Source: a virus
Taxonomy: Duplodnaviria; Heunggongvirae; Uroviricota; Caudoviricetes
Reading direction: 5' to 3' (one strand)
IMG/VR virus record: IMGVR_UViG_2619619132_000003
Coordinates: 1 to 6,373 of that record
DNA length: 6,373 bases
The notes beneath the pieces were generated by a model that searched no databases, had not been told where the DNA came from, and saw only the letters and a program-made list of their open reading frames with translations. Position numbers and translations under genes: made by a program. Shown here one piece after another: positions 2,565 to 6,373 of this stretch (position 1 is the stretch's first letter; each line of letters opens with the position of its first letter).

Positions 2565-2868
2565 TGGTTGCCTCCTTTGCTGGGCCTTCTAACTTCTGAG
2601 TGGTTGTATCAAACTCAAACAACTTAACCACGTCATCAAACAGGACATAATCGCCATCAGAATCTTCAGTCATGTCAGCGCCACAATCCTGACCGCACGA
2701 GTCGCAACCTCCCATATCAAGCTCGTATCGCTTCAGGTTTGCGATATTTGATAAATTCAGCGCCAGTACAGCCAGGTCATAAACCTCTTCGGCGGTATAC
2801 CCTGCACCATGCCCATACATTTCAATGCGGGATATGATTTCTTCTACCCGTTGTTTTGTGATCGTCAT
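2551..2868 (-). CDS. Hypothetical acidic protein (105 aa) with Cys cluster CDSCGQDC
   Basis: ATG at 2868-2866 preceded by GGGAGGTGA, in an ATGA overlap with the upstream stop (2867-2865). By my count about 23 Asp/Glu against 8 Lys/Arg, with the acidic residues concentrated in the C-terminal half. No family recognised. Confidence 0.6.
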   Translation of the reverse strand: MTITKQRVEEIISRIEMYGHGAGYTAEEVYDLAVLALNLSNIANLKRYELDMGGCDSCGQDCGADMTEDSDGDYVLFDDVVKLFEFDTTTQKLEGPAKEATSEQD

Positions 2869-3326
2869 TTTTGCTCACCTCCCTGTTCTTCCAGAAAAAT
2901 ACGCATAGCCTCAAGCATCTCTTCGGTGTCATACGGAGACAGCTTGTCACGCAGGATGTGTTCAATGCTGTTAATGAACTTTCGGATTGCTTTGCGTTCA
3001 ATTTCGGTCAGGAAAGCATCGGTGGCTGGGGTGTCTGATTGCAGAGACTTTGCGCGATAGTCATTCCACCCTCTTGCATACATGGGATTAACTTGCACTC
3101 CATCTTTTACGCAATATGCCTGACCTCCACGGTTGATAACCTTGATTTCGTCCATTGCGCCAGACTTCAGCCCCGCATTCTCCGCCGCCAGCTCCGCGCA
3201 CTTGGCCTCCGCTTCAGCAAATTTACGCACCAGATATTCAGCGTTTGTTTCGTTAACCTTTAGATCTCGTGGGATGCATTTACCTTTCAGAAAACCATCC
3301 ATCTCAATTAGTGACATTTGTTTCAT
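2865..3326 (-). CDS. Hypothetical protein (153 aa)
   Basis: The track ORF 2865..3344 starts with GTG. The in-frame ATG at 3326-3324 forms an ATGA overlap with the stop of the upstream small ORF (3325-3323) and is preceded by GGAG about 9 nt upstream. No family recognised. Confidence 0.5.
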
Positions 3327-3487
3327 TTCTTGCCACTCCGCCACATCGCATTCAGATATTTGTTTTGATTCACTGAAGGAAAAGAATTTCTCTTAAGCAA
3401 TTCCTCTCTCGATGGCATTGGCTTTACGCGTTGGCGAATAATCATTTCTGCCGGAAGAATGCCGGGATTGTATGCAAGTCCTCTCAT
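3323..3487 (-). CDS. Hypothetical small basic protein (54 aa)
   Basis: The track ORF 3323..3640 starts with TTG and overlaps the upstream gene extensively. The internal ATG at 3487-3485 is preceded by GAGGAA with about 7 nt spacing, and the upstream stop (3500-3498) lies inside that Shine-Dalgarno. The ATG at 3505 is an alternative but has no Shine-Dalgarno. Confidence 0.4.
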
Positions 3488-3497
3488 GGTAAATTCC

Positions 3498-3794
3498 TCA
3501 GTCATTACTGATAGCGCCATAGCGTGAGCGGTAATTACGCAGGCGCGGGTCGATATATTCAGGGAAGTGGGTATATGTGGCTTTGCGGAATGGTCGGATT
3601 GATGTCTGGTAAATTCGCTCGCGTTCTTCTTTCTCTGCAAGCCATATACAGTGGCGAAATTCCTTTTCCTCTTTCGTTTCCTGCGGTAGCGACATTATCC
3701 GATCGTAGTTTTTTCTGAATTTATCCAGCACCTCCGATACGGAATTGCCGGAACAGCGGCGCGCGTCATCCGCACCATACAGAGGCGCTGGCAT
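3498..3794 (-). CDS. Hypothetical protein (98 aa), basic and aromatic-rich, immediately downstream of erf-ssb
   Basis: ATG at 3794-3792 preceded by AAGGA with about 8 nt spacing. Size and position are reminiscent of P22 abc2 (anti-RecBCD), but I do not recognise the sequence, so this is positional inference only. Confidence 0.55.
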
Positions 3795-3817: not shown

Positions 3818-4201
3818 CTAGAAGGGAATTGAATCGTCGTATTCAGGATGATTTTGATGATTGCTACTTTGTTGCTGTTGGCTGTTTCCTGAAGTTGCAA
3901 ATCCAATCTTTGCATTCAGTAATTCAAGAGTGATTGATTGACCATTTTGCCCCTGATAAACATCAACCATGATGTTTTCTCCGGTAATTTCTACAATGCC
4001 ACCTTCAACAAGAACACTACGGTAGTAATCCGCTTGCGCTCCCGGCTTGGCAAATACAACGGCGCTGTAGTTTGTCCATTCTTTCTTTTTTGTCTGGCGA
4101 TCGTAATACTGAACGCCAGCACGGATGTTGAATCCGATATTTTCCCCGGCCTGAAACTCTCTTGCGGGCTTGTTTAGTCTTACAGTAATCGAATGTGCCA
4201 T
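3818..4201 (-). CDS. ssb: Single-stranded DNA-binding protein, short phage type (127 aa)
   Basis: ATG at 4201-4199 overlaps the Erf stop by 1 nt (TAATG), with AGGAG upstream. The core WTNYSAVVFAK...YYRSVLVEGGIVEITGENI parallels the E. coli SSB OB-fold segment WHRVVLFGKLAE...YLRKGSQVYIEGQL. A Gln-rich linker leads to the acidic tail YDDSIPF, compared with DDDIPF in E. coli SSB. Confidence 0.8.
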   Translation of the reverse strand: MAHSITVRLNKPAREFQAGENIGFNIRAGVQYYDRQTKKKEWTNYSAVVFAKPGAQADYYRSVLVEGGIVEITGENIMVDVYQGQNGQSITLELLNAKIGFATSGNSQQQQSSNHQNHPEYDDSIPF

Positions 4202-4806
4202 TAAGCAGCAGCTCCTTCTAATTCGTCTCGTCTGATGTTGTAAACGTCCTGCGCTTTGTGCTGCTCAGGTGTGCCTTCGAGCATCTTCCACGCTTTGGCG
4301 AACGCCTGTTTAAGCTCTTCTACGGTGTTTTTCTGCATTGCTGCGTCAGTGAATGCTTTTAGAACCTGTTCAGGTGTAGGTGATGGTTTTGATTGCTTTG
4401 CTGCTGCGTTCTGCTGATGTTTATGCTCGTCTGTATCTGCATCTTTCGCATCATCAATGCCGAACAAACCATTGAGGCAATACTTGCGTGCATAAGAGCT
4501 TGTAGCTCCCGTAACTTGTGCAGAATCCATTCCTTTCTTGCTTTCTTCCTCTCGTGCAAGAGCGGTTGCCGTATGGCTGTTTTCGCCATCGGTAATAGTT
4601 GCCGTGGCTTTCACGTAATACCGATCACCAATCAACACAACTTCATCGCTGATTGATAAAAACAGACCATTCAGTAACGGCTTAACGCCTTCAAGAATAT
4701 CTTCGCAGCTTCTGTATTTATATTTACCGAATGAGTTGTACTGATTCTTTGGCGCGTTCAGATTCTCCTGAATAGCTGCCAGTCTTGCGTAAAATTCTTT
4801 GCTCAT
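4201..4806 (-). CDS. erf: Erf-family single-strand annealing (recombination) protein (201 aa)
   Basis: The track ORF begins with TTG at 4836; the first ATG is at 4806-4804 and gives MSKEFYARLAAIQENLNAPKNQYNSFGKYKYRSCEDILEGVKPLL. Size, the kil-proximal position, coupling to ssb and my recollection of the P22 Erf N-terminus support the call; it was not verified by search. Confidence 0.6.
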   Translation of the reverse strand: MSKEFYARLAAIQENLNAPKNQYNSFGKYKYRSCEDILEGVKPLLNGLFLSISDEVVLIGDRYYVKATATITDGENSHTATALAREEESKKGMDSAQVTGATSSYARKYCLNGLFGIDDAKDADTDEHKHQQNAAAKQSKPSPTPEQVLKAFTDAAMQKNTVEELKQAFAKAWKMLEGTPEQHKAQDVYNIRRDELEGAAA

Positions 4807-4895
4807 ATGATTGTTCTCAGAATGGACACGGCCCAAGGAAATAACGCTGATTTAATACTTCGACTCGGGACAAATTAAGGCATACCCGCATTCCT

Positions 4896-5066
4896 TCACG
4901 ATCTCCATTCTGGCGATACATTAACGCCTGCTGCGTGTACATGCGTCTCTGTAACTTGCTCTCCTTCACTGTGGTTGCAAGTGACATGAATATCTCCTTC
5001 GTTACCGATTAATTCTTTCATCTGACGAATGAATTCTTCGTCTGACCAGTTATCTGTAAAACTCAT
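4896..5066 (-). CDS. Hypothetical small protein (56 aa) in the position of P22 arf
   Basis: The track ORF 4896..5081 starts with GTG. The in-frame ATG at 5066-5064 forms an ATGA overlap with the kil stop (5065-5063). Product MSFTDNWSDEEFIRQMKELIGNEGDIHVTCNHSEGEQVTETHVHAAGVNVSPEWRS. No sequence recognition. Confidence 0.4.
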   Translation of the reverse strand: MSFTDNWSDEEFIRQMKELIGNEGDIHVTCNHSEGEQVTETHVHAAGVNVSPEWRS

Positions 5067-5215
5067 TTCCTGCGATACCACGGAAGGTTGATAGCTGATT
5101 TCATCGCTTTATTTGCTTCAAGCCACATTTTTGAATCACCAATAAATCTGGCTATTACTGCTTTGTTCTGTGCAGCACGAAGCATCTGGTGATTGATGGC
5201 TATTTCATTGCGCAT
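5063..5215 (-). CDS. kil: Kil-like host cell-division inhibitor (50 aa)
   Basis: Hand-translated; not in the ORF track. ATG at 5215-5213 preceded by GAGG with about 7 nt spacing. Product MRNEIAINHQMLRAAQNKAVIARFIGDSKMWLEANKAMKSAIQLPWYRRK. The segment IARFIGDSKMW resembles lambda Kil (IATFIGDEKMF, as remembered). Overlaps the 3' end of cIII by 16 nt, as kil does in lambda. Confidence 0.6.
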   Translation of the reverse strand: MRNEIAINHQMLRAAQNKAVIARFIGDSKMWLEANKAMKSAINLPWYRRK

Positions 5216-5331
5216 AATAAGACCTCAACTCTTTTCCATCCGTCACGTAATTTACGGGTGATTCGTTCAAGTAAAGATTCATTTAATTGGAAGGCACCCA
5301 TGCGAGCGCCTCCCGCGATTGCGTAAATCAT
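5200..5331 (-). CDS. cIII: CIII-like protein (FtsH protease inhibitor, 43 aa)
   Basis: Hand-translated; not in the ORF track. ATG at 5331-5329 preceded by AAGGA with about 8 nt spacing. Product MIYAIAGGARMGAFQLNESLLERITRKLRDGWKRSEVLLCAMK. The core ESLLERITRKLRDGWKR and the N-terminal M-YAIAG match lambda CIII (MQYAIAG...ESLLERITRKLRDGWKR) as I remember it. Confidence 0.8.
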   Translation of the reverse strand: MIYAIAGGARMGAFQLNESLLERITRKLRDGWKRVEVLLCAMK

Positions 5332-5355: not shown

Positions 5356-6231
5356 TTAGTAGGTTATTTTTGTTGCGAATACTTCGCCTTTTACGATGGC
5401 TGTTATGATATTTTTAGCAACATCTTCTGATGCACCAACCTTGATAAGGTCAGCAAGTATTTTGTTATTTACTTCTTTCCGGTGAGCTTTATCCTTTGCT
5501 CTACGCTCTTCTTCGTCCTTGATTCTTTTTTCTTCTGCTATTCTGGCTTGCTCTTTTGCTTCAGCTTCGCGCCGGATTCGTTCAGCCTCCTCCTGTGCTT
5601 TTCGGCGTTCTGCTTCAATTGCCGCCTGCTTTTCTCTTTCAGCTCGTTCTGCTGCCTCTTTTGCTTCGCGCTGTGCTCGTTGCTCGGCTTCAATGCGTTC
5701 ACGCTCTGCACGTTCCGCTGCGGCCTTAGCTTCTGCTTCTCGCCTTGCTGCTGCTTCAATTTCGGCTTTTGCCTTTGCTTCGGCTTCTGCTCTGGCTTTC
5801 TCTTCAGCTTCTCTTTTTAAGCGTTCTTCATGCTCTCGCTTTTCCTGCTCCGCTTTGAGTCTTGCCTCTTCTCTTTTGCGGTCAAATTCGCGATCCATCA
5901 AAATCGCTATTTCATGGTCAGACTCAATTTGCTTTGCGAGAGCTTCAGCTGCTGCCTTAGCTTCTTCTTCGGCTTTAATCCGTGCCTGTTCCTCCTCATA
6001 ATCAGTAAGAGGCTGGCGTGCCTTGGCTTTCAGTTCATCAAGGCGATCGCGCACTGTCTTGCGGTTGGCATCAATTAGCTTTGGAATTTCCTTCAGTTCA
6101 GCAACAAGGTCTTTGCCAAGACCATCGAGATATGTTTTCGTCTGCGCAACTTTATACGCCAGAGAAGCGATCTGAACCGCCCCGGGTTTCCTGGAGAGTG
6201 TTTTATCTGTGAACTCAGGCTGCCAGATCAT
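5356..6231 (-). CDS. E/A/K/R-rich coiled-coil protein, apparently interrupted at its 5' end by the IS; native portion 5356..6172
   Basis: The track ORF 5356..6357 starts with GTG inside the transposase coding region, in another frame. Sequence right of 6172 is IS-derived. The first in-frame ATGs (6249, 6231) lie inside the IS and have weak or no Shine-Dalgarno. The native part has no start codon of its own, so this is most likely the 3' fragment of a disrupted gene, possibly expressed as a fusion. About 170 aa are low-complexity, e.g. EAEAKAKAEIEAAARREAEAKAAAERAERERIEAEQRAQREAKEAAERAEREKQAAIEAERRKAQEEAERIRREAEAKEQARIAEEKRIKDEEERRAKDKA. Confidence 0.45.
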   Translation of the reverse strand: MIWQPEFTDKTLSRKPGAVQIASLAYKVAQTKTYLDGLGKDLVAELKEIPKLIDANRKTVRDRLDELKAKARQPLTDYEEEQARIKAEEEAKAAAEALAKQIESDHEIAILMDREFDRKREEARLKAEQEKREHEERLKREAEEKARAEAEAKAKAEIEAAARREAEAKAAAERAERERIEAEQRAQREAKEAAERAEREKQAAIEAERRKAQEEAERIRREAEAKEQARIAEEKRIKDEEERRAKDKAHRKEVNNKILADLIKVGASEDVAKNIITAIVKGEVFATKITY

Positions 6232-6373
6232 CGTTTCCGATGGAAGCATAATAAGCTTTTTCTGCTTCTGCCGGAGGAGTATGGCCCAGCCTTTCCAGCA
6301 ATCGTCGATTGTTATACCAGTCCACCCACGTGAGTGTGGCCAGTTCCACTTCTGCACGGTTTTTCCAGCTCTT
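6173..6373 (-). mobile_element. IS3-family insertion sequence (IS629/IS1203-like), terminal ~200 bp; continues beyond the window
   Basis: The plus strand from 6173 reads TGAACCGCCCCGGGTTTCCTGGAGAGTG, a TG-initiated terminal inverted repeat that I recognise as IS629-group. It sits 42 bp beyond the stop of a transposase-like reading frame on the minus strand. Confidence 0.7.
6215..6373 (-). CDS. IS3-family transposase OrfB, 3' end (partial; 5' end outside window)
   Basis: Hand-translated minus-strand frame open to the window edge: KSWKNRAEVELATLTWVDWYNNRRLLERLGHTPPAEAEKAYYASIGNDDLAA, stop at 6217-6215. WYNNRRL...PPAE...YY is the characteristic C-terminus of the IS3-family integrase-core (rve) domain. 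It is absent from the ORF track because no start lies in the window. Confidence 0.75.
   Translation of the reverse strand, partial: KSWKNRAEVELATLTWVDWYNNRRLLERLGHTPPAEAEKAYYASIGNDDLAA

What the first reader, a model, noticed from the sequence alone, without database searches (positions are those of the whole stretch)
3818..5066. P22-type recombination module: arf-position ORF, Erf annealase and SSB instead of lambda Red
Downstream of kil the operon carries a 56-aa ORF coupled to kil by ATGA, then an Erf-like protein, then a short SSB whose start overlaps the Erf stop (TAATG). The order cIII-kil-small ORF-erf mirrors the P22 order c3-kil-arf-erf. The SSB carries a YDDSIPF tail, the motif that in E. 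coli SSB recruits host replication and repair proteins, so the phage SSB may compete for those partners.
Basis: partly seen in the sequence, partly recalled or inferred. Interest (0 to 1): 0.5.

Follow-up and report, generated by a model that had tools for sequence, protein, structure and literature searches.

The report
HK97-type phage recombination module
This stretch is the well-known recombination gene block of HK97/HK022-like lambdoid phages: two small overlapping genes, an Erf strand-annealing protein, a divergent single-strand-DNA-binding protein and the anti-RecBCD protein Abc2.

Summary
On the minus strand the order is cIII, kil, a 56-aa ORF coupled to kil by ATGA, a 201-aa Erf, and a 127-aa protein whose start overlaps the Erf stop (TAATG) and which ends in DDSIPF.

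- **Erf:** it is a true ERF-family annealase (Pfam 2e-44; 74.6% identical to P22 Erf).
- **The 127-aa protein:** it has no Pfam SSB hit. It does fold as an OB domain whose best structural neighbours are bacterial SSB and PriB, followed by a disordered linker and a host-like acidic tip. It is HK97 gp40, named "SSB-1b" in a 2025 Genome Research survey.

- **Abc2:** the anti-RecBCD gene lies directly downstream and completes the module.
- **A second small ORF:** a 56-aa ORF (4817-4987, the HK97 gp42 type) overlaps the first, has its own strong ribosome-binding site, and is the constrained frame in the overlap.
- **Gp33:** the ATGA-coupled ORF is the HK75/HK446 Gp33 protein. A 2026 preprint reports that it triggers the P2 OLD defence.

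The region is 97-98% identical to Sf101, HK633, HK97 and HK022, so it is already known. It is HK97-type rather than strictly P22-type, because P22 has the unrelated Abc1 where the SSB sits. Interest is low.

The parts
5200..5331 (-). cIII. Context: marks the upstream edge of the block in the early-left operon.
   Evidence: Pfam Lambda_CIII 4e-15; phrog_550.
5063..5215 (-). kil. Context: it overlaps cIII, and its stop codon is coupled to ORF A.
   Evidence: Pfam Lambda_Kil 1.7e-20; phrog_2055 1.2e-35.
4896..5066 (-). ORF A, 56 aa, coupled to kil by ATGA. It is the same protein as HK75_33 / HK446_033 ('Gp33'). It sits at the arf position and has an Arf-like N-terminal motif, WSDEEFI.
   Evidence: phrog_2123 4e-40. 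55/56 identical to HK75_33 and 94.6% to HK446. In codons 2-26, 15 of 23 distinct substitutions fall at codon position 3. The preprint 10.64898/2026.07.10.737580 reports that Gp33 alone triggers P2 OLD.
4817..4987 (-). ORF B, 56 aa, of the HK97 gp42 type. It overlaps ORF A in the +1 frame and ends 10 nt before the erf start.
   Evidence: phrog_1723 4e-35. AAGGAG at 4994-4999 lies 6 nt upstream of the ATG. In the overlap, 13 of 20 substitutions fall at frame-B position 3. It is conserved in nearly all of the 63 distinct upstream variants.
4201..4806 (-). erf, a 201-aa ERF-family single-strand annealing protein. The annealing domain is roughly residues 1-139.
   Evidence: Pfam ERF 2.1e-44; phrog_155 2e-57. 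74.6% identical to P22 Erf overall, with 91% in the N-terminal domain. 100% identical to HK446 Erf.
4204..4389 (-). Erf C-terminal domain (residues 140-201), a predicted three-helix bundle. I infer that it is a partner-interaction domain.
   Evidence: AlphaFold2 pLDDT 92.5 with three helices. Only 39% identical to the P22 Erf C-terminal domain, although the N-terminal domains are 91% identical. 52% identical to the C-terminus of an AAA_24 (Sak4-like) annealase and 36% to that of a Rad52-type annealase. Also found on a RecT fragment.
3818..4201 (-). SSB-like gene (HK97 gp40 type, 'SSB-1b'), 127 aa. The OB domain is residues 1-105 and a disordered Q-rich linker is residues 106-118.
3821..3847 (-). 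C-terminal tip PEYDDSIPF, which resembles the E. coli SSB tip DFDDDIPF.
   Evidence: A [DE]DSIPF ending is present in 78 of 83 sequences carrying this erf, the window included. The family consensus is D-D-x-I-P-F after a linker of variable length. Yersinia and Leminorella members end PPMDFDDDIPF.
3498..3794 (-). abc2, the anti-RecBCD protein. It lies outside the finding's coordinates but is part of the module.
   Evidence: Pfam Anti-RecBCD_p2 4.1e-61 over its full length; phrog_656 2.3e-56.

Best explanation
This is the homologous-recombination (Rec) module of an HK97/HK022-like lambdoid prophage, transcribed leftward in the early-left operon after cIII and kil. I propose the following division of labour.

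- **Abc2** binds host RecC and converts RecBCD from a destructive nuclease into an end-resecting machine. This is established for P22 Abc2 and inferred here from homology.
- **The 127-aa OB-fold protein (SSB-1b)** coats the resulting single strands. Its DDSIPF tip, which copies the host SSB tip, either recruits the annealase or displaces the host SSB interactome. This is inferred from fold, architecture and analogy.
- **Erf** anneals the coated strand to a complementary strand, for example at the lagging strand or at another resected end. This is established for P22 Erf, which is 91% identical in the annealing domain. The Erf three-helix C-terminal domain is the likely docking site for an SSB tip, by analogy with the Redbeta C-terminal domain. 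This step is inferred.
- **The two small overlapping ORFs upstream** are accessory. ORF A is the Gp33 protein that a preprint reports as a trigger of P2 OLD and proposes as a RecBCD manipulator. ORF B has no known function.

The genes are chained by overlapping or closely spaced stop and start codons, which suggests coupled translation.
For: - **Gene identities:** (Pfam and PHROG; 74.6% identity to P22 Erf).
- **Same block in sequenced phages:** 97-98% nucleotide identity over 2 kb to Sf101, HF4s, HK633, mEp213 and mEp043, and 97.1% to HK97 and HK022. The HK97 and HK446 annotations agree.
- **Published status:** gp40 is called SSB-1b and placed in the Rec module in PMC12315714.
- **Position next to annealases:** in species-level genomes the family sits directly after an annealase of three different core folds, ERF, Rad52/22 and AAA_24.
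- **Precedents for a tail-to-annealase hand-off:** the HK620 SSB stimulates Sak4; a tail-deletion construct (SSB delta-6) was part of that assay, though I did not read its result (PMC5928155). The Redbeta C-terminal domain binds the last ~9 residues of host SSB (PMC11611040).
- **ORF A:** Gp33 identity; OLD-trigger phenotype.
Against: - No biochemical data exist for SSB-1b. Pfam SSB (PF00436) and NCBIfam do not recognise it.
- The hhalign matches are short, 57 and 21 columns, and disagree on whether W42 or Y45 corresponds to E. coli W54.
- The C-terminal domain is not specific to SSB-1b-containing modules, because P22 Erf has a version of it.
- An IS3-family fragment at the window's right end shows the prophage has suffered at least one insertion, so the module may not be expressed in its present host.
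Confidence: 0.85

Rival explanations
1. The 127-aa OB-fold protein is not a working SSB. It is a tail-bearing decoy or adaptor, PriB-like, whose main role is to titrate host proteins that bind the SSB C-terminus (ExoI, RecQ, RecO, PriA and others) or to interfere with defences that sense SSB.
For: PriB is among the top structural neighbours. The tip is the most strictly conserved short segment outside the OB core. Some members carry a tip identical to the host's, PPMDFDDDIPF. No Pfam SSB hit.
Against: - Aromatic residues are conserved at or next to the positions that stack on ssDNA in E. coli SSB: Y32, W42 or Y45, F50 and Y/F82.
- The gene sits immediately after annealases of three different folds. 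That is the position of the HK620 SSB, which was shown to bind ssDNA and to stimulate its annealase.
- HK75 carries a canonical PF00436 SSB at the same position.
Confidence: 0.1
2. The ATGA-coupled 56-aa ORF highlighted by the reader is not a real gene, or ORF A and ORF B are two halves of one protein joined by a programmed frameshift, as the single 83-aa gp42.1 in the HK97 record would suggest.
For: - HK97 annotates one continuous 83-aa ORF.
- In the overlap, substitutions follow frame B rather than frame A.
- The C-terminal residues of ORF A differ between relatives (HAAGVNVSPEGRS against HAESSLVSP) and its stop codon moves.
Against: - The fused ORF exists only in the HK97 record, which has two extra bases relative to every other relative.
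- ORF B has its own AAGGAG-N6-ATG start.
- The first 26 codons of ORF A show a third-position substitution bias, 15 of 23, p = 0.002.
- Expression of the annotated Gp33 CDS alone gives a phenotype.
- I saw no slippery heptamer or prfB-like site near either ORF A stop, but this was by eye only.
Confidence: 0.1
3. The block is a decaying remnant in a defective prophage and does nothing in its present host.
For: An IS3-family transposase fragment at 6215-6349 replaces the N-terminus of the upstream coiled-coil gene. Frameshifted SSB-1b alleles exist in relatives, namely HF4s and L076.
Against: All seven ORFs from cIII to abc2 are intact. They are 95-100% identical at the protein level to those of plaque-forming phages such as HK446, HK75 and HK633.
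Confidence: 0.15

Closest known systems
HK97 / HK022 Rec module (gp42.1/gp42, Erf, gp40 'SSB-1b', Abc2), as classified by Zheng, Casjens, Davidson, Amundsen & Smith 2025 (PMC12315714)
   Same: Same genes in the same order with the same junctions. Nucleotide identity is 97.1% over the block. Erf is 100% identical to those of HK446 and other phages of this group.
   Different: The HK97 database record has three extra bases. Two fuse ORF A and ORF B into an 83-aa gp42.1. One changes the gp40 ending from DDSIPF* to DDSNPILI*. The window, like 78 of 83 sequences with this erf, has the two-ORF layout and the IPF tip.
P22 recombination module (arf, erf, abc1, abc2)
   Same: Same position after c3 and kil. 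Erf is 74.6% identical overall and 91% in the N-terminal domain. Abc2 is homologous over its full length.
   Different: - P22 has the HTH-like Abc1 (94 aa, phrog_323) where this module has an OB-fold SSB. The two are unrelated.
- P22 Arf (47 aa, phrog_2445) shares only a 7-residue motif with ORF A.
- The Erf C-terminal domains are only 39% identical.
HK620 Sak4 + SSB(HK620) + Abc2 module (Hutinet et al. 2018, PMC5928155)
   Same: An annealase is followed by a phage SSB that carries an acidic C-terminal tail, then Abc2. The SSB stimulates the annealase in vivo.
   Different: The annealase there is a RecA-like Sak4, not Erf. The HK620 SSB is a different sequence type ('SSB-2'). Zheng et al. say it is not a homologue of bacterial SSB.
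Lambda Red (Exo, Beta, Gam)
   Same: Same genomic slot between cIII/kil and the ea genes. Same overall logic: a single-strand annealase plus neutralisation of RecBCD.
   Different: There is no exonuclease and no Gam. RecBCD is re-tooled by Abc2 rather than blocked. A phage SSB is added. No sequence similarity was detected.
Bacterial SSB (PF00436; E. coli SSB)
   Same: OB fold, disordered linker and an acidic tip ending in IPF. Aromatic residues lie at or next to the W40, W54, F60 and W88 positions.
   Different: The protein is below Pfam detection and about 15% identical to bacterial SSBs. The linker is much shorter (127 aa in total). The tip is DDSIPF rather than DDDIPF.

Membership tests
ERF superfamily annealases (PF04404; prototype P22 Erf) | Match to the ERF domain model above the curated threshold | tested here: met
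   151.6 bits against a cutoff of 25, E = 2.1e-44, residues 5-143.
ERF superfamily annealases (PF04404; prototype P22 Erf) | Close similarity to the experimentally characterised prototype | tested here: met
   74.6% identity over residues 1-200 to P22 Erf. The N-terminal domain is 91% identical.
ERF superfamily annealases (PF04404; prototype P22 Erf) | Ring-shaped oligomer with ssDNA-annealing activity | not testable with these tools
   Needs biochemistry or electron microscopy.
Bacterial-type SSB (PF00436) | Match to the Pfam SSB model | tested here: not met
   No Pfam family at E <= 0.1. No NCBIfam hit. A canonical phage SSB at the same position in HK75 scores 1.6e-36.
Bacterial-type SSB (PF00436) | Profile-level homology to canonical SSBs | tested here: met
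   phrog_44 (SSB) 2.1e-27. The aligned stretches are short.
Bacterial-type SSB (PF00436) | OB fold of the SSB/PriB type | tested here: met
Bacterial-type SSB (PF00436) | Disordered linker followed by an acidic tip ending in I-P-F | tested here: met
   Residues 107-127 have pLDDT below 50. The tip DDSIPF is conserved across the family while the linker varies from about 15 to more than 100 residues.
Bacterial-type SSB (PF00436) | ssDNA binding and homotetramer formation | not testable with these tools
   Only indirect evidence: conserved aromatics Y32, W42, Y45, F50 and Y/F82.
HK97-type lambdoid Rec module (SAP-Erf + SSB-1b + Abc2) | Contiguous erf, gp40-like SSB-1b and abc2 between kil/cIII and the ea genes | tested here: met
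   classification in PMC12315714.
P22-type module (arf-erf-abc1-abc2) | Arf homologue upstream of erf | tested here: inconclusive
   ORF A against P22 Arf gives only WSDEEFI/FSDEEFI, pairwise E = 0.01. The fused HK97 protein against the Arf PHROG gives E = 0.069. ORF B shows no similarity. A true P22-type Arf does occur upstream of erf + SSB-1b in Intestinirhabdus (L087).
P22-type module (arf-erf-abc1-abc2) | Abc1 downstream of erf | tested here: not met
   P22 Abc1 is an HTH-like 94-aa protein (phrog_323). By eye its sequence shows no resemblance to the 127-aa protein, and the two hit different PHROG families (phrog_323 against phrog_44); no pairwise alignment was run.
P22-type module (arf-erf-abc1-abc2) | Abc2 anti-RecBCD protein | tested here: met
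   Pfam Anti-RecBCD_p2 4.1e-61, residues 1-98 against model positions 1-97 of 97.
Lambda Red | Exo, Beta and Gam homologues | tested here: not met
   No such Pfam or PHROG hit for any ORF in the window.

The most novel reading that the evidence does not exclude
The roughly 60-residue three-helix domain at the Erf C-terminus is a portable receptor for SSB tips. It has been shuffled onto at least four unrelated annealase cores: ERF, Rad52/22, the Sak4-like AAA_24, and RecT. The phage SSB-1b, with its host-mimicking DDSIPF tip, forms with it a self-contained SSB-annealase hand-off pair, which would make recombination independent of host SSB. Separately, the conserved overlapping pair ORF A (Gp33, an OLD trigger) and ORF B, which travels with kil regardless of annealase type, could be a two-protein RecBCD-modulating unit that is functionally analogous to Arf.
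Probability: 0.3. Interest if true: 0.4.

Novelty: already known. Interest (0 to 1): 0.15.

Why it matters
There is little here for discovery. The block is a 97-98% copy of a module sequenced in 2000 (HK97, HK022). It was classified in 2025, and one of its small ORFs was probed experimentally in a 2026 preprint.

Three practical points remain.

1. The Erf + SSB-1b pair is a compact candidate for recombineering tools, in the same way as Sak4 + SSB of HK620.
2. The HK97 reference sequence, which serves as the SSB-1b prototype, hides the IPF tip behind a one-base difference. Anyone modelling partner binding should use another allele.
3. Annotations of this region usually miss ORF B. That matters for interpreting 'gp33' constructs in defence-trigger experiments, because the annotated gp33 CDS also contains the start and first ~30 codons of ORF B.

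Tried and rejected
- **SSB gene against curated libraries.** Pfam, NCBIfam and PADLOC gave nothing. Plain sequence searches of the PDB gave only borderline SSB hits, E = 0.058 and 0.66.
- **Is P22 Abc1 a truncated relative of the 127-aa protein?** HF4s annotates a 94-aa 'ssb', the same length as Abc1. Rejected: the sequences are unrelated, and the HF4s gene is simply frameshifted.
- **Programmed frameshift joining ORF A to ORF B.** Rejected as the main reading. ORF B has its own Shine-Dalgarno sequence and ATG, and the fusion is seen only in the HK97 record.
- **Does the Erf C-terminal-domain allele co-vary with the presence of SSB-1b?** No discrimination. The P22 domain (no SSB-1b) is 39% identical to the window's, inside the 34-52% range of SSB-1b-linked annealases.
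- **Census of the C-terminal domain.** The word-indexed search returned only fragments. The exhaustive search returned 20 hits, mostly ERF plus one RecT fragment, too few for a census.
- **More distant SSB-1b contexts.** The viral-contig scan with the SSB-1b profile returned only near-identical loci. The genome scan gave 11 useful loci.
Full report
**What is in the sequence**

All genes of interest lie on the minus strand.
- Reading 5' to 3', the order is cIII (5200-5331), kil (5063-5215), a 56-aa ORF (ORF A, 4896-5066), a second 56-aa ORF (ORF B, 4817-4987), a 201-aa ORF (4201-4806), a 127-aa ORF (3818-4201) and a 98-aa ORF (3498-3794).
- The ORF A start overlaps the kil stop as ATGA. ORF B is in the +1 frame relative to ORF A. 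The start of the 127-aa ORF overlaps the stop of the 201-aa ORF as TAATG.

**Gene identities**

- Pfam and PHROG searches give Lambda_CIII, Lambda_Kil, ERF (2.1e-44) for the 201-aa protein, and Anti-RecBCD_p2 (Abc2, 4.1e-61, full length) for the 98-aa protein.
- The Erf protein is 74.6% identical to P22 Erf and 100% identical to the Erf of HK446.
- No ORF in the window resembles lambda Exo, Beta or Gam. The remaining ORFs are ea8.5, DUF551, Ead/Ea22 and DUF2737 types.

**Is the 127-aa protein an SSB?**

Curated sequence models do not recognise it.
- Pfam, NCBIfam and PADLOC give no hit.
- PDB sequence searches give only borderline SSB matches.
- The large PHROG SSB family does match, at 2.1e-27.

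The family architecture is SSB-like. An alignment of 31 family members shows a conserved ~105-residue N-terminal domain. After it come a Q/P-rich linker of very variable length and a conserved D-D-x-I-P-F end.

Structure prediction agrees.
- AlphaFold2 on that alignment gives an OB barrel (five main strands with one helix) at pLDDT above 90, and a disordered residue 107-127 tail.
- The 50 best Foldseek matches in the PDB are all bacterial or mitochondrial SSBs or PriB (best E = 3.3e-5, TM 0.45-0.55).

Profile-profile comparison also supports homology, with caveats.
- Y32 aligns with the DNA-stacking residue W40 in both alignments.
- The longer alignment also pairs W42 with W54, F50 with F60 and Y82 with W88. 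The shorter alignment pairs Y45 with W54 instead.

I conclude that this is a divergent member of the SSB/PriB OB-fold lineage with the full SSB domain plan. ssDNA binding itself is inferred, not shown.

**It is already described**

- The 2-kb block is 97.1-98.3% identical to Sf101, HF4s, HK633, mEp213, mEp043, HK544, CUS-3, HK97 and HK022.
- HK97 annotates the same genes as gp42.1/gp42, erf, gp40 and abc2.
- Zheng, Casjens, Davidson, Amundsen and Smith (Genome Res 2025, PMC12315714) list HK97 gp40 as "SSB-1b". They describe it as a Rec-module protein with a predicted SSB-like fold and almost no sequence similarity to known SSBs. They note that such SSBs have not been studied experimentally.
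- The module is therefore the HK97 type: Erf + SSB-1b + Abc2.
- It differs from P22 at one position. After erf, P22 has Abc1, an HTH-like protein unrelated to the OB-fold protein.

**The 'arf-position' ORF**

There are two overlapping ORFs, and both look real.
- Among 63 distinct versions of the kil-erf interval taken from 80 viral contigs with an identical Erf, essentially all keep ORF A (52 or 56 aa) plus ORF B (56 aa).
- Only the HK97 record has a single 83-aa ORF, because of two extra bases.
- In the ORF-A-only part, 15 of 23 distinct substitutions fall on frame-A third positions (binomial p = 0.002).
- In the overlap, 13 of 20 fall on frame-B third positions (p = 0.004).
- In the ORF-B-only part the figure is 19 of 36 (p = 0.012).
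- So frame A is constrained for its first ~26 codons, and frame B from its ATG onward.
- ORF B has a strong AAGGAG Shine-Dalgarno sequence 6 nt upstream of its ATG.

Similarity of ORF A to P22 Arf is limited to WSDEEFI against FSDEEFI, so homology is unproven.

ORF A has a reported phenotype.
- It is 55/56 identical to HK75_33 and 94.6% identical to HK446_033.
- A July 2026 bioRxiv preprint (10.64898/2026.07.10.737580) reports that this 'Gp33' alone triggers the P2 OLD abortive-infection tRNase. It proposes that Gp33 is a new RecBCD inhibitor or manipulator.
- The annotated gp33 CDS also contains the start and first ~30 codons of ORF B, which is not annotated in HK75 or HK446.
- In HK75 the ORF A / ORF B pair precedes a Rad52-type annealase and a canonical PF00436 SSB. 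The pair therefore travels with kil rather than with a particular annealase.

**Context of SSB-1b elsewhere**

- In 11 species-level genome loci the family lies directly after an annealase.
  - The annealase is ERF in E. coli, Intestinirhabdus, Serratia and Rahnella.
  - It is Rad52/22 in two Yersinia species and a Sak4-like AAA_24 protein in Leminorella.
  - In two distant MAGs an Erf gene lies one or more genes upstream.
- The Intestinirhabdus locus combines a true P22-type Arf with Erf, SSB-1b and Abc2.
- The Yersinia and Leminorella proteins end ...PPMDFDDDIPF, the same ending as the canonical SSB of HK75 and, from memory, of E. coli SSB.
- Among 83 sequences with this erf, the window included, 78 keep an intact 126-127-aa protein ending [DE]DSIPF, while the linker varies.

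**How it most likely works**

*Established for homologues (from the cited papers).*
- Abc2 binds RecC and alters RecBCD.
- P22 Erf anneals complementary single strands.
- The Redbeta C-terminal domain binds the last ~9 residues of host SSB, and this contact is required in vivo (PMC11611040).
- The HK620 SSB stimulates its annealase Sak4; the assay included a tail-deletion construct (SSB delta-6) whose result I did not read (PMC5928155).

*Inferred here.*
- SSB-1b coats strands produced by Abc2-modified RecBCD or at forks.
- Its tip hands them to Erf.
- Erf residues 140-201 form a confident three-helix bundle (pLDDT 92.5), which I propose as the docking site.
  - This domain is only 39% identical between the window's Erf and P22 Erf, although the annealing domains are 91% identical.
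  - It recurs at 52% identity on the AAA_24 annealase, at 34-36% on the Rad52-type annealases, and on a RecT fragment.
  - It therefore behaves as a shuffled partner-interaction module, something Zheng et al. anticipated but did not analyse.

**Verdict**

- It needs three corrections: the module is HK97-type, Abc2 is part of it, and there are two small ORFs.
- The feature is already known and ordinary for lambdoid prophages.
- Modest by-products of the check:
  - The HK97 reference record hides the IPF tip of the SSB-1b prototype behind one extra base.
  - ORF B is widely unannotated.
  - The annealase C-terminal domain is shared across annealase folds.

Noticed in passing
window 6174-6373 (ORF fragment 6215-6349, minus strand) and window 5356-6357: The right end of the window carries the C-terminal end of an IS3-family transposase (IS600-like in the E. 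coli matches). The 333-aa coiled-coil 'TolA-like' gene upstream of cIII has lost its native N-terminus. Its first ~57 residues have no counterpart in the family profiles or in the Rahnella homologue, and alignments to other genomes stop at 6173. The prophage has therefore taken an IS insertion.
   Followed up: partly
window 2865-3344 (minus strand): This 159-aa ORF is 42% identical (E = 1e-38) to HK446 gp27. A 2026 preprint names that protein Oad2, an inhibitor of the P2 OLD defence. The same preprint says a 54%-identical homologue in HK75 does not inhibit OLD, so function cannot be inferred.
   Followed up: partly
L001 (HK97, AF069529.1) 1652-1903 and 2880-2908, compared with window 4817-5066 and 3818-3850: The HK97 reference record has three extra bases relative to the window and to all other relatives examined. 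Two of them fuse ORF A and ORF B into the 83-aa gp42.1. One extra C turns the SSB ending DDSIPF* into DDSNPILI*. These are likely sequencing errors in the 2000 deposit, or strain-specific mutations.
   Followed up: yes
window 4204-4389; L094 696-1559; L092 2246-3001; L178 2459-3166; P0149: The ~55-residue C-terminal three-helix domain of Erf recurs on annealases with unrelated cores: AAA_24 (Sak4-like), Rad52/22 and RecT. P22 Erf carries a divergent allele (39% identity) despite a 91%-identical annealing domain, so a mosaic joint lies inside erf.
   Followed up: partly
L092 and L093 3001-3471; L094 1559-1975: SSB-1b family members in Yersinia and Leminorella prophages end with PPMDFDDDIPF. This is identical to the tip of the canonical PF00436 SSB of HK75 and, from memory, of E. 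coli SSB. Their OB domains are of the divergent SSB-1b type.
   Followed up: no
L002 (HF4s) 2700-3095; L076; L084; protein P0060: Some relatives have damaged SSB-1b genes. HF4s and L076 are frameshifted, and the HF4s record annotates a 94-aa 'ssb' plus a 36-aa ORF. In L084 and P0060 the 5' part of the gene runs into unrelated sequence; in P0060 that sequence carries a precomputed DAHP-synthase Pfam domain (not checked for L084). That suggests a deletion at a prophage boundary.
   Followed up: no
window 5004-5066 (N-terminal 21 codons of ORF A): The first 21 residues of ORF A (MSFTDNWSDEEFIRQMKELIG) occur at 76-81% identity joined to other sequences in SEN22, HK140, Gally and other phages. They also match the N-terminus of a different PHROG family (phrog_17766). 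A recombination joint therefore lies just where ORF B's ribosome-binding site begins.
   Followed up: no
window 3323-3640 (minus strand): This is a DUF2737 gene of the HK97 gp38 type. The real product is probably the ~65-aa protein starting [10 protein letters not shown]..., as in L086 and L088. Its start overlaps the 3' end of abc2, continuing the chain of coupled genes beyond the Rec module.
   Followed up: no
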